A stretch of 56,578 nucleotides of DNA from an uncultured Gammaproteobacteria bacterium (GTDB lineage: Bacteria; Patescibacteriota; Patescibacteriia; Patescibacteriales; UBA12465). The stretch lies in contig CAZMYU010000005.1 in the NCBI GenBank assembly GCA_964570655.1, positions 1 to 56,578 of the forward strand. The letters run 5' to 3'. Positions 2,219-56,578 of this stretch are shown here, in pieces; the stretch's first letter is position 1, and every line of letters begins with the position of its first letter. The notes under the pieces are model-generated. The model was given only the letters and a program-made list of their open reading frames with translations, searched no databases and had not been told where the DNA came from. The position numbers were made by a program, and so were the translations under genes.

Positions 2219-2298
2219 CTGGATCCTGGCCTTCGCCAGGATGACAGGTGCGGGGGTTGTTTGTTTTAATTGTCATCCTGGCGAAGGCCAGGATCCAG
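2219..2298. repeat. inverted pair of 28-nt REP hairpins (GIY-YIG-associated family)
   Basis: 2219-2246 is the exact reverse complement of 2271-2298 (TGTCATCCTGGCGAAGGCCAGGATCCAG); identical to copies at 46498 and 46859. Confidence 0.95.
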
Positions 2299-21785: not shown

Positions 21786-23039
21786 ATGGAATTTTTTAAA
21801 TATCAAAATGAAAATTTGTATTGCGAGGGGATATCTTTGGGGGTTTTAACTAAAAGATTTAAAACTCCTTTTTATGTTACTAGTTCTCAAGCCATTATTA
21901 AACAAGCGGCTAATTTTGAATATAATTTTTCAAAATTAAAACATCTGACCTGTTATGCTGTTAAGGCCAATGATAATTTGAGTATTTTGAAATTATTAGC
22001 TGCCGCTGGCTTAGGGGCTGATGTTGGTTCCTGTGGCGAATTGTATCGAGCCAAACTCTCTGGCTTTCCAGCCAATAAAATAATTATGTCCGGGGTTGGT
22101 AAAACTAGTGATGATATTGTCGCCGCTTTGCAGGCTAAGATTTTGATGTTAAAAGTGGAATCGCTCAAAGAATTAGAGCAAATATCTAAATTGTCTAAAC
22201 AGCTCAAACTAGTGGCTGGGATTTCACTGAGAATCAACCCGCAGGTTTTGGCCGAGACTCATCATGCTCATACAGCTACTGGTGGATTGGAACATAAATT
22301 TGGGATTGATCAAAAAGACTTATCTCCAGCCTTAAAAATTATTAAAAAATCTAGTAATTTGCGACTAATTGGTTTGAATCTGCATATTGGATCACAAATC
22401 TTTAAAGTTGAGCCTTATCTCTTGGCTATCTCTAAAATGTTGAAAATAAAAAAACGCCTAACGGCGCAAGGAATTTTTGTTAAATATTTAGATATTGGTG
22501 GTGGATTTCCAATTACTTATGATCCAGATAAACCAGTGAGAGATTTGGAATACTTTGCTAAAGATATTATCAAGGTTTTGGAAAATGAATCAGCTAAAAT
22601 TATTTTTGAACCTGGCCGTTATCTAGTGGCTAATGCTTCAGCTTTAATTTCTCAAATTGTTTATATCAAAAAAAATTCTCAAGGTAAAAAATTTATAGTC
22701 ATGGATGCCGGCATGTCTGAATTAATGCGGCCAATTTTATATGATGCTTATCATCAAATCATCCCTATCAAAAAAGCTAAATCAACTAAATTGATTGCCG
22801 ATATCGTTGGCCCGCTTTGCGAATCAGGAGATGTTTTGGCTAAAGCGCGAGAAATTTCCAAAGTTAGAGAGCACGATTTTTTGGCAATTATGTCAGTGGG
22901 GGCTTATGGTACAGTGATGTCCAATAATTATAATGGCCGACTACGTCCACCAGAGCTCCTAATTAGTAATCGTCAAGTAAAAATTATTAGAAAAGGTGAA
23001 ACTCTCAAGCAGGCTATTCAAAATGAAATTGCTATATAA
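21786..23039 (+). CDS. lysA: diaminopimelate decarboxylase
   Basis: YAVKAN (PLP Lys), KFGI, HIGSQ, LDIGGGF, FEPGRY, GPLCESGD, GAYGTVMSNNYN. Confidence 0.9.
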   Translation: MEFFKYQNENLYCEGISLGVLTKRFKTPFYVTSSQAIIKQAANFEYNFSKLKHLTCYAVKANDNLSILKLLAAAGLGADVGSCGELYRAKLSGFPANKIIMSGVGKTSDDIVAALQAKILMLKVESLKELEQISKLSKQLKLVAGISLRINPQVLAETHHAHTATGGLEHKFGIDQKDLSPALKIIKKSSNLRLIGLNLHIGSQIFKVEPYLLAISKMLKIKKRLTAQGIFVKYLDIGGGFPITYDPDKPVRDLEYFAKDIIKVLENESAKIIFEPGRYLVANASALISQIVYIKKNSQGKKFIVMDAGMSELMRPILYDAYHQIIPIKKAKSTKLIADIVGPLCESGDVLAKAREISKVREHDFLAIMSVGAYGTVMSNNYNGRLRPPELLISNRQVKIIRKGETLKQAIQNEIAI

Positions 23040-23213
23040 AAAACTCCAGGTATCAAGGCCCTGTACTTGGTGGACAAAGCGTCGCCTGGAGTTTTAAGCG
23101 AAAGGGTGGTTCCCAATCAACCCGATATGATTTTTTTATGAACAAAGGAGATTTAATCATCCAGAACACAAGCGGAACCACCCAATCTATATACGACACA
23201 AACGAAAAAACTG
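23038..23213 (-). ncRNA. structured ncRNA candidate (~175 nt), 6S-like
   Basis: Minus-strand TTGACA(23249-23244)-17bp-TAATAT promoter; perfect 10-bp stem 23104-23113/23174-23183; 3' hairpin with U-tract. Confidence 0.45.
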
Positions 23214-23220
23214 TAATTAG

Positions 23221-23249
23221 ATATTAATATATATTTTTTTAATTGTCAA
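23221..23249 (-). promoter_or_regulatory. sigma70 promoter for the ncRNA candidate
   Basis: TTGACA-17bp-TAATAT directly after the NRAMP stop; no annotated gene downstream. Confidence 0.65.
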
Positions 23250-23252
23250 GAG

Positions 23253-24542
23253 TTAAGCTCGGCCAAGGCTCAAAAACATAGCCAGGGCAGAGAGAGCCAT
23301 CACACCAAAAGTTAACCAAACTAGAGTAGATGATAGGCGACTACTGCTATATTCACCCATGATATTTTTGTTACTAGCGATTTTGGCAATTACAAAAATC
23401 AGAGGCACGGCTACTACTCCATTAAAAACAGCTGTGAAAACTAGGGCCTTGATTGGATCAATGCCAATAAAATTAATAATTAGACCAATGATAGTGGCAA
23501 TCGTAATGATCCCATAAAAACCATGGGCTTTTTTTAATTTCAAATTGAGTCCTTGCTTGAAGTTTAGAGCCTCTGAGAGGGCATAGGAGGCTGAGCCAGA
23601 CAAAACTGGAATACCCAGTAGTCCCAGGCCAATCACTCCAATAGCGAAGATAATTTTGGCTATAAACCCGGCATTAGGAAAGGTTTGAACTAGTGGTTCT
23701 AGAGCCCGGGCGGCATCAGCAGCGGTGCCAATATTAGTAATCCCATTACTATGTAAAACCGTGGCCGCCACGACAATAATCGACCAAGCTGTTAATTGGG
23801 AAGCCAGCATGCCGATAAAATTATCGAGACGCATGTTTTTCAAAAATCTTCGACTGATTCGCGGAGTGCCATCTTTTCTGATTAAATGTTGAGCTTTTTC
23901 CTCTTCCACTTCCTCAGAAGCCCCCCAAAAGAACATATAGGGAGAGATAGTAGTACCCAAGACGCCGGTTAATATAAAGAAAAAAGAAAAAGACCAGTCA
24001 ATATGAGGGATTAGGGTTGATTTAAAAATTATTGGCCAGGGTTGATGCACTAAAAATAGAGTGACGATATAAGAAAGCAGAGCCGCGGCAAACCATTTGA
24101 GAATGCGAGCATAAACCTTGTAAGTGGTAAAGATTTCTAAGACCAAAATTAGGGCCGTAAAAAATAAAGTTAGAGCAGCAAAATTGATCGGAATAATTAA
24201 TCTAGCCGCTTCAGCCATGGCTCCAATATCAGCGCCAATATTAATAGTATTAGCAACAAACACTAAAATGACAATAAAAAATAAAAGTTTTTTGCTATAG
24301 AATTTTTTGACGACTCCAGCAATTCCATGACCAGTGACTGCTCCAATACGCGCACAAGCCTCTTGGACAGCAATCAGCATCGGCAGAATTGGAATAATGG
24401 TCCAAAGCTGTCCGTAACCAAATTGAGCACCGGTTTGGCTATAGGTAGCAATGCCCGATGGATCGTCATCAGCGGCACCAGTAATAATGCCTGGTCCTAA
24501 TTTTTTGAAAAATTTCTTTATTCCTAATTTGAATTTACGCAT
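23253..24542 (-). CDS. NRAMP-family divalent metal transporter
   Basis: LGPGIITGAADDDPSGIATYSQTGAQFG; GTTISPYMFF. Confidence 0.9.
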   Translation of the reverse strand: MRKFKLGIKKFFKKLGPGIITGAADDDPSGIATYSQTGAQFGYGQLWTIIPILPMLIAVQEACARIGAVTGHGIAGVVKKFYSKKLLFFIVILVFVANTINIGADIGAMAEAARLIIPINFAALTLFFTALILVLEIFTTYKVYARILKWFAAALLSYIVTLFLVHQPWPIIFKSTLIPHIDWSFSFFFILTGVLGTTISPYMFFWGASEEVEEEKAQHLIRKDGTPRISRRFLKNMRLDNFIGMLASQLTAWSIIVVAATVLHSNGITNIGTAADAARALEPLVQTFPNAGFIAKIIFAIGVIGLGLLGIPVLSGSASYALSEALNFKQGLNLKLKKAHGFYGIITIATIIGLIINFIGIDPIKALVFTAVFNGVVAVPLIFVIAKIASNKNIMGEYSSSRLSSTLVWLTFGVMALSALAMFLSLGRA

Positions 24543-56460: not shown

Positions 56461-56531
56461 TCGGGGATCGTCTAATGGTAGGACGCTAGGTTCTGGCCCT
56501 GGTAATTATGGTTCGAATCCATATCCCCGAG
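56461..56531 (+). tRNA. tRNA-Gln(CTG)
   Basis: Acceptor TCGGGGA/TCCCCGA (U1-A72), D-arm GTC-TAATGGTAG-GAC, anticodon loop TTCTGGC, T-arm TATGG-TTCGAAT-CCATA; CCA not encoded. Confidence 0.93.
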
Positions 56532-56578
56532 CAAATCAGGATAAGCAGTCGCGAAATCGTCTGCTTTTCTGTAATATG

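What the first reader, a model, noticed from the sequence alone, without database searches (positions are those of the whole stretch)
23038..23249. Unannotated ~175-nt structured RNA gene, 6S-like
Seen (minus strand): consensus promoter right after the NRAMP stop, then GTGTCGT/GCGACGC stem, a bubble (ATATAGATT opposite TTTCGCTTAAAACTCCAG), a perfect GGGTGGTTCC/GGAACCACCC stem and an irregular apical hairpin. It ends in AAAACTCCAGG/CCTGGAGTTTT plus T6, which competes with the closing stem. Size and stem-bubble-stem layout fit 6S RNA, and CTTAAAACT recalls E. coli 6S from memory. The closing stem is short for a 6S RNA, and a 35-codon ORF runs through it.
Basis: partly seen in the sequence, partly recalled or inferred. 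Interest (0 to 1): 0.65.

Follow-up and report, generated by a model that had tools for sequence, protein, structure and literature searches.

The report
Orphan small-RNA unit, not 6S

Summary
Three features on the minus strand of 23038-23249 are real. There is a consensus promoter (TTGACA-17-TAATAT) 3 nt after the NRAMP stop. There is a perfect 10-bp GC-rich stem (GGGUGGUUCC/GGAACCACCC). There is a strong terminator with U6 that abuts the stop of the convergent lysA gene. In this genome that promoter form is 64 times denser between genes than inside them, so an independent ~176-nt transcript is likely.

The 6S-like stem-bubble-stem is not real. The 7-bp closing stem is at chance level: 76% of shuffled leaders do as well. 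Its pair probability in the full-length RNA is 0.0000, because the terminator wins by 10.7 kcal/mol. The 60 nt inside the stem fold no better than shuffles.

Rfam gives no 6S match, or any other. The recalled CUUAAAACU motif is in E. coli 6S, but in a different structural position. I found no homologue in 148 family genomes, about 100 related loci, phages, plasmids or protein space. The same genome holds a better rod-shaped 6S-like candidate elsewhere.

Verdict: a lineage-specific orphan sRNA candidate that doubles as the NRAMP 3'UTR. Function unknown; modest interest.

The parts
23244..23249 (-). -35 hexamer TTGACA, 3 nt after the NRAMP stop codon (23253-23255)
   Evidence: Genome-wide, this promoter form is 64 times denser between genes than inside them.
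23221..23226 (-). -10 hexamer TAATAT (17-nt spacer). The predicted transcription start is about 23214.
   Evidence: The same TTGACA-17-TAATAT form lies 30-95 nt before ORFs at several other loci of this genome. The start site is inferred from spacing, not mapped.
23184..23214 (-). 31-nt AU-rich 5' leader, predicted single-stranded in the full-length RNA
   Evidence: MFE and centroid folds
23193..23199 (-). At chance level; not part of the favoured fold.
23104..23183 (-). Stem domain: a perfect 10-bp stem (23183-23174 with 23113-23104) closing a 60-nt AU-rich interior with no significant structure of its own
   Evidence: Pair probabilities 0.99-1.0. Domain z = -3.67, interior z = -0.71. Apart from one repeat family, only about 7 such perfect long-loop inverted repeats lie between genes in this genome.
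23079..23085 (-). 3' arm of the 'closing stem' (GCGACGC). It lies inside the 5' half of the terminator hairpin.
23038..23095 (-). Intrinsic terminator: an extended hairpin (11 + 3 + 7 bp) and U6. The U tract overlaps the lysA stop codon (23037-23039, + strand), so the hairpin is shared by both convergent genes. G-U pairs and the longer U run favour the minus strand.
   Evidence: z = -4.79 and pair probabilities 0.69-1.0 across the 11 outer-stem pairs, at least 0.92 for all but the outermost. The single SNP in a second contig, at 23062, changes U-A to U-G on the minus strand and would give A-C on the plus strand.
23253..24542 (-). NRAMP (MntH-type) transporter gene. No terminator lies between its stop and the RNA, so the RNA sequence is also its 3'UTR.
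   Evidence: Pfam PF01566, E = 3.7e-72. The first terminator-like site is 209 nt after the stop, against a genome median of 57 nt.
21786..23039 (+). Convergent lysA (diaminopimelate decarboxylase). Its stop abuts the shared terminator.
   Evidence: Pfam PF02784 and PF00278. The gene is rare in the order: 4 of 316 genomes match, and the other three are only 31-32% identical.

Best explanation
This is a young, lineage-specific small-RNA transcription unit.

A consensus sigma-70-type promoter directly after the NRAMP stop codon starts a transcript of about 176 nt on the minus strand. The transcript has four parts:
- a 31-nt AU-rich single-stranded leader;
- one stable 10-bp GC-rich stem holding out a 60-nt, largely unstructured AU-rich loop;
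- an 8-nt linker;
- a strong intrinsic terminator that also ends the convergent lysA gene.

NRAMP has no terminator of its own. The same sequence is therefore also made as the 3'UTR of the TerC-NRAMP mRNA. This matches the layout of 3'UTR-type sRNAs that keep their own promoter and share the parent mRNA's terminator.

Shown: the sequence signals and their statistics.
Inferred: that the unit is transcribed, and that it acts as an RNA. The most likely mode is base-pairing through the leader or the large loop, but no target stood out. It is not a 6S RNA.
For: Promoter. TTGACA-17-TAATAT. In this genome exact TTGACA-N17-TAnnnT is 81 intergenic against 10 genic, and 66 of the 81 lie directly before an ORF or tRNA. 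The same hexamer pair precedes ORFs at other loci.

Structure. The whole unit has z = -3.57, the stem domain z = -3.67 and the terminator z = -4.79. Pair probabilities are at least 0.99 for the stem and at least 0.92 for all but the outermost terminator pair, which is 0.69.

Strand. The core folds at -37.1 kcal/mol on the minus strand and -27.2 on the plus strand. G-U pairs and the U6 run are on the minus side. The one SNP in a second, metagenomic copy keeps pairing only on the minus strand.

Context.
- The convergent spacer is 213 nt against a median of 75 nt, and many of the longest convergent spacers coincide with tRNA genes.
- The NRAMP stop-to-terminator distance is 209 nt against a median of 57 nt.
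- NRAMP genes in relatives have simple terminators within about 30-60 nt of the stop.
- The RNA has 42% GC, against a 33.5% median for intergenic regions.
- The genome holds several other promoter-RNA-terminator units without ORFs.
Against: There is no homologue anywhere, so there is no covariation or conservation.

The 60-nt interior has no significant structure.

No mRNA target is better than those found for shuffled controls.

I estimate that about 1-5 of the 81 intergenic promoter matches are chance, scaling from the genic density. About 1.5 long-loop 10-bp inverted repeats are expected by chance across all intergenic DNA.

The spacer is a lineage-specific junction: lysA is next to NRAMP only here. 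The signals could therefore be leftovers of a rearrangement.
Confidence: 0.55

Rival explanations
1. There is no RNA gene. The spacer is just the long 3'UTR of NRAMP plus a bidirectional terminator. The promoter is a relic or an incidental match, for example of a stable-RNA promoter that once followed NRAMP. The inverted repeat has no function.
For: There is no conservation at all. The NRAMP-lysA junction is unique to this genome. In five relatives NRAMP is followed by a promoter plus tRNA-Gln(CUG), and one of those promoters shares TTGACAATTA...TATTAATATCTA with ours. The interior of the hairpin is unstructured.
Against: A strict consensus promoter, a perfect 10-bp stem and a terminator all on one strand and in the right order are unlikely by chance. 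The rough per-spacer odds are about 0.003-0.01 for the promoter and about 0.003 for the stem. Promoter motifs of this form in this genome are overwhelmingly functional.
Confidence: 0.25
2. It is a 6S-type RNA: a rod with a central bubble that mimics an open promoter, binds RNA polymerase holoenzyme and templates short product RNAs.
For: The size of about 176 nt fits. No Rfam 6S is detectable in this order, so the slot is formally open. If the 7-bp stem forms, it leaves loops of 9 and 18 nt. CUUAAAACU also occurs in E. coli 6S.
Against: - No RF00013 match even at E<=10.
- The closing stem is at chance level and has zero ensemble probability.
- The Rfam consensus has a closing stem of about 27 bp in two segments, against 7 bp here.
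- In E. coli the motif lies in the apical stem, not the central bubble.
- The RNA is absent from 147 family genomes.
- The same genome has a rod-shaped RNA at C1:76495-76640 with z = -6.9. An earlier finding (e1-2098123) reports a conserved rod-shaped RNA in this genome that I take to be the same unit.
Confidence: 0.04
3. It is a switch-type attenuator. The 7-bp stem (an antiterminator) competes with the terminator, and a ligand or protein decides whether transcription reads on antisense into lysA.
For: The 3' arm of the 7-bp stem lies inside the 5' half of the terminator, which is the usual riboswitch geometry. Read-through would run antisense to lysA.
Against: The stem is at chance level. 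There is no sense-strand gene downstream, no Rfam riboswitch match and no conservation. The supposed aptamer interior has no significant fold.
Confidence: 0.04
4. It is an mRNA for a small protein of 48 aa (from GTG 23199) or 35 aa (from the internal ATG).
For: An open frame spans most of the unit. The N-terminal part, YIDWVVPLVFWMI, is hydrophobic. Shine-Dalgarno motifs are not enriched before ORFs in this genome by a crude test, so the lack of one here is uninformative.
Against: No protein among 5.8 billion clusters shares even three 5-residue words with it. Its composition is odd: 4 Trp and 7 Pro in 48 residues. The frame ends inside the terminator loop. By my own estimate, an open frame of this length is not rare in six frames of a 213-nt AT-rich spacer.
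Confidence: 0.05
5. It is a DNA-level element. The 10-bp inverted repeats 60 bp apart would be protein-binding sites or the ends of a decayed miniature transposable element.
For: The stem is a perfect Watson-Crick palindrome, equally good on both strands. A RAYT gene and a palindromic repeat family exist in this genome.
Against: It is single-copy in the genome. I read no target-site duplication in the sequence. It is unrelated to the genome's repeat family.
Confidence: 0.04

Closest known systems
3'UTR-type sRNAs with their own promoter that share the parent mRNA's terminator (e.g. DapZ after dapB in Salmonella, MicL within cutC in E. coli; from established knowledge)
   Same: The promoter sits at the very end of a coding gene on the same strand. 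The sRNA and the parent mRNA end at one intrinsic terminator. The size is 100-300 nt.
   Different: There is no evidence of transcription, of a chaperone or of a target here. There is no conservation. The terminator is also shared with a convergent gene.
6S RNA (SsrS, Rfam RF00013)
   Same: The length is about 180 nt, and it is a stand-alone unit with its own promoter. The 9-mer CUUAAAACU is shared with E. coli 6S.
   Different: There is no model match. It has a 7-bp chance-level closing stem instead of about 27 bp. The bubble does not exist in the favoured fold. The motif is in a non-equivalent position. It is not conserved in relatives.
Other uncatalogued promoter-hairpin-terminator RNAs of Patescibacteria noted in this scan (e.g. 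the rod-shaped RNA at C1:76495-76640 of this genome; earlier findings e1-2098123 and e1-1143596)
   Same: The same strict consensus promoter, an intrinsic terminator, no ORF and no Rfam family.
   Different: Those RNAs are reported as conserved across many CPR genomes and fold much more strongly (z = -6.9). This one is unique to one genome and has only one significant helix besides the terminator.

Membership tests
6S RNA (RF00013) | Scores above the family's covariance-model threshold | tested here: not met
   No match at the gathering score or at E<=10 on 501 nt. 0 of 41 genomes of the order match, while the control search matched 5 of 14 well-known genomes, among them E. coli and B. subtilis. 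E. coli ssrS scores 139.8 bits with the same library.
6S RNA (RF00013) | A long closing stem (about 27 bp in two segments in the Rfam consensus) on the outer side of the central bubble | tested here: not met
   There are only 7 bp, two of them G-U. 76% of shuffled leaders do as well. Pair probability is 0.0000, and forcing the stem costs 10.7 kcal/mol.
6S RNA (RF00013) | A large central bubble between two stems in the stable fold | tested here: not met
   The bubble's 3' strand is the 5' arm of the terminator. In the MFE and centroid folds the terminator forms instead.
6S RNA (RF00013) | A housekeeping RNA conserved among related genomes | tested here: not met
   BLASTN found nothing real in 60 relatives. 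The single-sequence covariance model found nothing in 147 other family genomes or in 39 relatives with lax filters.
6S RNA (RF00013) | The shared motif CUUAAAACU in an equivalent structural position | tested here: not met
   In E. coli 6S the motif spans model positions about 109-117, an internal loop plus the 3' strand of the apical stem. Only 'AA' is conserved in the consensus.
6S RNA (RF00013) | Binds sigma-70 RNA polymerase and templates product RNAs | not testable with these tools
   This needs biochemistry or small-RNA sequencing.
Independently transcribed bacterial sRNA gene (generic) | Own promoter and intrinsic terminator on one strand, with no conserved ORF | tested here: met
   Promoter, terminator, and no protein relative of the ORF.
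Independently transcribed bacterial sRNA gene (generic) | A discrete transcript is detected | not testable with these tools
Riboswitch / transcription attenuator | A conserved aptamer followed by a regulated gene on the same strand | tested here: not met
   There is no Rfam cis-regulatory match and no sense-strand gene after the terminator. The interior fold is not significant, and there are no homologues.
tRNA / tRNA-like or SRP RNA | A cloverleaf, or the SRP domain IV motifs | tested here: not met
   ARAGORN finds nothing, even with introns allowed and a lowered threshold. RF00169 and RF01854 give no match in this genome. The lineage also lacks the SRP54-type GTPase domain of Ffh and FtsY.

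The most novel reading that the evidence does not exclude
The unit is a conformational switch rather than a plain sRNA. While the RNA is being made, the 7-bp leader helix would transiently block the terminator. A cellular signal would then set how much transcription runs antisense into lysA. Candidate signals are Mn2+ (from the upstream transporter operon) or lysine/diaminopimelate. This would link metal or amino-acid status to the only lysine-pathway gene this reduced bacterium keeps.
Probability: 0.04. Interest if true: 0.65.

Novelty: new member of a known kind. Interest (0 to 1): 0.25.

Why it matters
If it is transcribed, this would be an evolutionarily young sRNA born at a gene-order junction in a roughly 0.87-Mb CPR genome. 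Regulatory RNAs in these bacteria are almost unstudied, and I found no open-access paper on 6S RNA in Patescibacteria.

It does not fill the missing-6S slot. With no relatives and no expression data, it cannot yet teach much.

Two by-products are more useful. The first is the demonstration that this genome's promoters are strict enough to predict transcription units from sequence alone. The second is the apparent absence of the whole SRP system from this order.

Tried and rejected
1. Rfam at the gathering score and at E<=10: only noise, namely a lncRNA and an sRNA model at E>1.
2. Homologue hunts, all empty:
   - BLASTN in 60 relatives;
   - covariance model R1 in 148 family genomes, in 40 genomes with lax filters and in 100 NRAMP or lysA loci from genomes and metagenomes;
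   - nhmmer and blastn on 103 loci;
   - phages and plasmids;
   - tblastx against the own genome and the loci;
   - the ORF peptide against 5.8 billion proteins.
3. Synteny:
   - NRAMP orthologues at 65-73% identity in 19 family genomes and 80 metagenome loci never carry the RNA.
   - lysA's nearest relatives, at 57% identity or less, have other neighbours.
4. An exact-pattern scan for the stem arms:
   - It found 101 hits in genome contigs, mostly one Desulfobacterales repeat family.
   - One hit, L148, is a real structured RNA of another Patescibacterium (z = -7.7).
   - Its own syntenic relatives, L215 and L216, do not keep that helix sequence, and R1 scores it at noise level. I rejected it as a coincidence.
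5. tRNA-derived origin: ARAGORN with introns found nothing, and matches to the genome's tRNAs are at noise level.
6. Target prediction: duplex energies and perfect complementarity to all translation-start regions were no better than for shuffled controls. One search timed out.
7. Shine-Dalgarno test of the ORF: uninformative, because SD-like cores are not enriched before ORFs in this genome with my crude start calls.
9. A first alignment with wrong locus coordinates, a failed 'of' argument and an over-long source list were technical misses.

Full report
**Setting.** The window is contig C5 of an assembly of 0.87 Mb with 38.7% GC, 21 contigs and 95.85% completeness. It belongs to an ultra-small Patescibacteria/CPR lineage. 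The finding lies in the 213-nt spacer between two convergent genes. One is an NRAMP transporter (23253-24542, minus strand; Pfam PF01566). The other is lysA, diaminopimelate decarboxylase (21786-23039, plus strand; PF02784 and PF00278).

**The observation.**
- Folding the minus strand from 23215 to 23030 gives -55.4 kcal/mol, with z = -3.57 against dinucleotide shuffles.
It has the perfect 10-bp stem GGGUGGUUCC/GGAACCACCC and a long terminator hairpin.
- The 7-bp 'closing stem' GUGUCGU/GCGACGC is absent from it.
- In the ensemble of the 176-nt transcript the closing-stem pairs have probability 0.0000. The 10-bp stem is at 0.99-1.0. The 11 outer terminator pairs run from 0.69 at the outermost pair to 1.0, and all the others are at least 0.92. 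Forcing the closing stem costs 10.7 kcal/mol.
- A helix of that size between the 31-nt leader and the 65-nt tail is expected by chance. 76% of shuffled leaders give at least 7 bp, and 58% give an equal or better duplex energy.
- The 'irregular apical hairpin' also adds nothing. The 60 nt inside the 10-bp stem fold with z = -0.71.
- The 'stem-bubble-stem' layout is therefore an artefact of reading the 5' arm of the terminator as a bubble strand.

**What is robust.** The stem domain has z = -3.67 and the terminator z = -4.79. The promoter is the strongest signal.

I scanned the whole genome for exact TTGACA, 17 nt, then TAnnnT with at least 4 of 6 matches to TATAAT.
- There are 81 hits in 97 kb of intergenic DNA and 10 in 772 kb of coding DNA, a 64-fold difference in density.
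- 66 of the 81 intergenic hits are followed within 160 nt by an ORF of at least 50 codons, or within 250 nt by a tRNA.
- The identical hexamer pair TTGACA-17-TAATAT precedes ORFs at several other loci.
- The hit at 23249 is one of 15 'orphans'. Several of these precede other ORF-free units that end in a terminator.

Context agrees with an inserted unit.
- Convergent spacers have a median of 75 nt, and many of the longest ones coincide with tRNA genes.
- The first terminator after NRAMP lies 209 nt from the stop, against a median of 57 nt.
- NRAMP genes of relatives carry simple terminators 30-60 nt after the stop.

**Strand.**
- The core folds at -37.1 kcal/mol on the minus strand and -27.2 on the plus strand.
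- The inner terminator stem contains G-U pairs that would be A-C on the plus strand.
- The U run is 6 on the minus side and 4 on the plus side.
- One other copy of the locus exists: a 1427-nt JGI metagenome contig with an identical lysA. It differs at a single base in 1427, window position 23062. There the minus-strand A becomes G, turning U-A into U-G in the terminator stem. This is one data point, but it is consistent with selection on the minus-strand RNA.

**Is it a 6S RNA?** No test supports that.
- Rfam gives no 6S match at the gathering score, or even at E<=10 on the 501-nt region.
- RF00013 finds nothing in 41 genomes of the order. The model may simply not see this lineage's 6S, if it has one.
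- I checked the recalled motif. E. coli ssrS does contain GCCUUAAAACUGCGACGAC.
- In the Rfam alignment, however, that stretch is an internal loop plus the 3' strand of the apical stem. It is not the 3' side of the central bubble, and only 'AA' is conserved in the consensus.
- The Rfam consensus has a closing stem of about 27 bp in two segments. Here there are 7 chance-level pairs.
- The same genome holds a much better rod-shaped candidate at C1:76495-76640. It has its own TTGACA-17 promoter, z = -6.9 and a one-sided 10-nt bulge. An earlier agent reported a rod-shaped RNA in this genome as conserved across Falkowbacteria-type CPR genomes (e1-2098123). I take it to be the same unit.

**Relatives.** I found none.
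- BLASTN in 60 relatives gave only promoter-sized noise.
- A covariance model of the 121-nt core (R1) found only itself in 148 family genomes, in 40 genomes with lax filters and in 100 fetched loci.
- NRAMP orthologues exist in 19 other family genomes and in 80 metagenome loci, at 65-73% identity. lysA is never their neighbour and the RNA is never there.
- In five of those loci NRAMP is followed by a promoter and tRNA-Gln(CUG). One of the promoters shares TTGACAATTA...TATTAATATCTA with ours. This allows, but does not show, that our promoter is a reused stable-RNA promoter.
- lysA itself is nearly unique in the order. 4 of 316 genomes match, and the other three are 31-32% identical. Its nearest relatives anywhere are 57% identical or less and have other neighbours.
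- The spacer is therefore a junction specific to this lineage, and the RNA is at most genus-old.

An exact-pattern scan for the two stem arms turned up a real, strongly folded RNA in another Patescibacterium (L148, z = -7.7). Its own syntenic relatives carry a different helix sequence at that position, and R1 scores it as noise. The shared 10-mer is a coincidence.

**Other readings tested.**
- *tRNA-like:* ARAGORN finds nothing, even with introns allowed.
- *SRP RNA:* there is no RF00169 or RF01854 match in the genome. The lineage also lacks the partner proteins (see below).
- *Pseudogene or mobile element:* tblastx and searches of phages and plasmids gave nothing. The sequence is single-copy.
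- *Small protein:* the 48-aa frame has no relative among 5.8 billion protein clusters. The SD test was uninformative.
- *Trans-acting sRNA:* no target region pairs better than with shuffled RNAs.
- *Attenuator:* the geometry fits, but the key stem is at chance level and nothing lies downstream on that strand.

**Conclusion.** The best-supported reading (about 0.55) is an independently promoted, intrinsically terminated RNA of about 176 nt. It is also the 3'UTR of the TerC-NRAMP operon, it is specific to this lineage, and its function is unknown. The main rival (about 0.25) is a non-functional spacer with a relic promoter. The 6S reading is about 0.04.

**Side observation.** The SRP system appears to be missing from this order.
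- The small SRP RNA model matches 0 of 31 relatives, and the large model 0 of 1.
- The SRP54-type GTPase domain (PF00448, found in Ffh and FtsY) matches 0 of 41 genomes, some of them single-contig. It matches 14 of 14 control genomes.
- tblastn with E. coli Ffh against this genome finds nothing better than E = 0.27.
- The assembly contains only one 100-N gap, so masking is not the cause.

Noticed in passing
whole genome G000 and 40 relatives of the same order: The SRP protein-targeting system appears to be absent. The SRP54-type GTPase domain (PF00448, Ffh and FtsY) matches 0 of 41 genomes but 14 of 14 controls. The small SRP RNA matches 0 of 31 genomes and the large SRP RNA 0 of 1. tblastn with E. 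coli Ffh finds nothing, and masking is not the cause. Earlier notes on other Patescibacteria report ftsY and ffh missing from their usual cluster.
   Followed up: partly
window 2219-2298, and at least 12 more copies (e.g. C4:80032-80113, C16:14720-14801, C6:366-447, C9:18818-18899): A palindromic repeat family. Perfect arms of about 27-29 bp (CCTGGATCCTGGCCTTCGCCAGGATGACA and its complement) flank a variable centre of about 25 nt. The centre occurs in both orientations among the copies.
   Followed up: no
G000 C1:76460-76640 (+): A promoter (TTGACA-17-TACACT) is followed by a rod-shaped hairpin RNA of about 120 nt, within a transcript of roughly 145 nt, with a one-sided 10-nt bulge CGACAAGCAU and a U-run. 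z = -6.9, and no Rfam match. It is probably the conserved rod RNA of earlier finding e1-2098123, and it is a better 6S-like candidate than the flagged unit.
   Followed up: partly
G000 C3:115250-115517 (-), C19:9620-9797 (-), C4:280-430 (+), C4:10150-10360 (-), C11:330-474 (-): Further 'orphan' consensus promoters are followed by ORF-free stretches, most of which end in an intrinsic terminator. None matches an Rfam family; only generic hairpin matches appear, all below their gathering scores.
   Followed up: partly
whole genome G000: Promoters are unusually strict and therefore predictive. Exact TTGACA-N17-TAnnnT occurs 81 times between genes and 10 times inside them, and 24 intergenic sites match TTGACA, a 16- or 17-nt spacer, and TATAAT perfectly. 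SD-like cores are not enriched before ORFs by a crude test.
   Followed up: partly
L148:5380-5615 (Patescibacteria group bacterium H41-bin076_1, JBBTQY010000005.1); syntenic L215 and L216: A promoter, a strongly folded RNA of about 200 nt (z = -7.7) and a terminator lie upstream of a tyrosine-recombinase-like gene. Two related genomes keep the promoter and terminator but carry a different structured sequence between them. There is no Rfam match.
   Followed up: partly
L009, L014, L015, L019, L026 (relatives), downstream of NRAMP: In five relatives NRAMP is followed by a promoter and tRNA-Gln(CUG). In this genome that tRNA lies at window 56461-56532, and its 3' flank is nearly identical to that in L015.
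   Followed up: partly
window 21786-23039: lysA is almost unique in its order. 4 of 316 genomes match, and the other three are 31-32% identical. The nearest relatives anywhere are 57% identical or less; the closest are Patescibacteria, followed by Chlorobi-type sequences.
   Followed up: partly
whole genome G000: ARAGORN finds 46 tRNAs and one tmRNA, but no tRNA-Gly(GCC). This may be an assembly gap.
   Followed up: no
window 23062: This is the only difference, in 1427 nt, from a JGI metagenome contig (3300076591, Ga0565080_049097). It falls in the inner terminator stem and preserves pairing only on the minus strand.
   Followed up: yes
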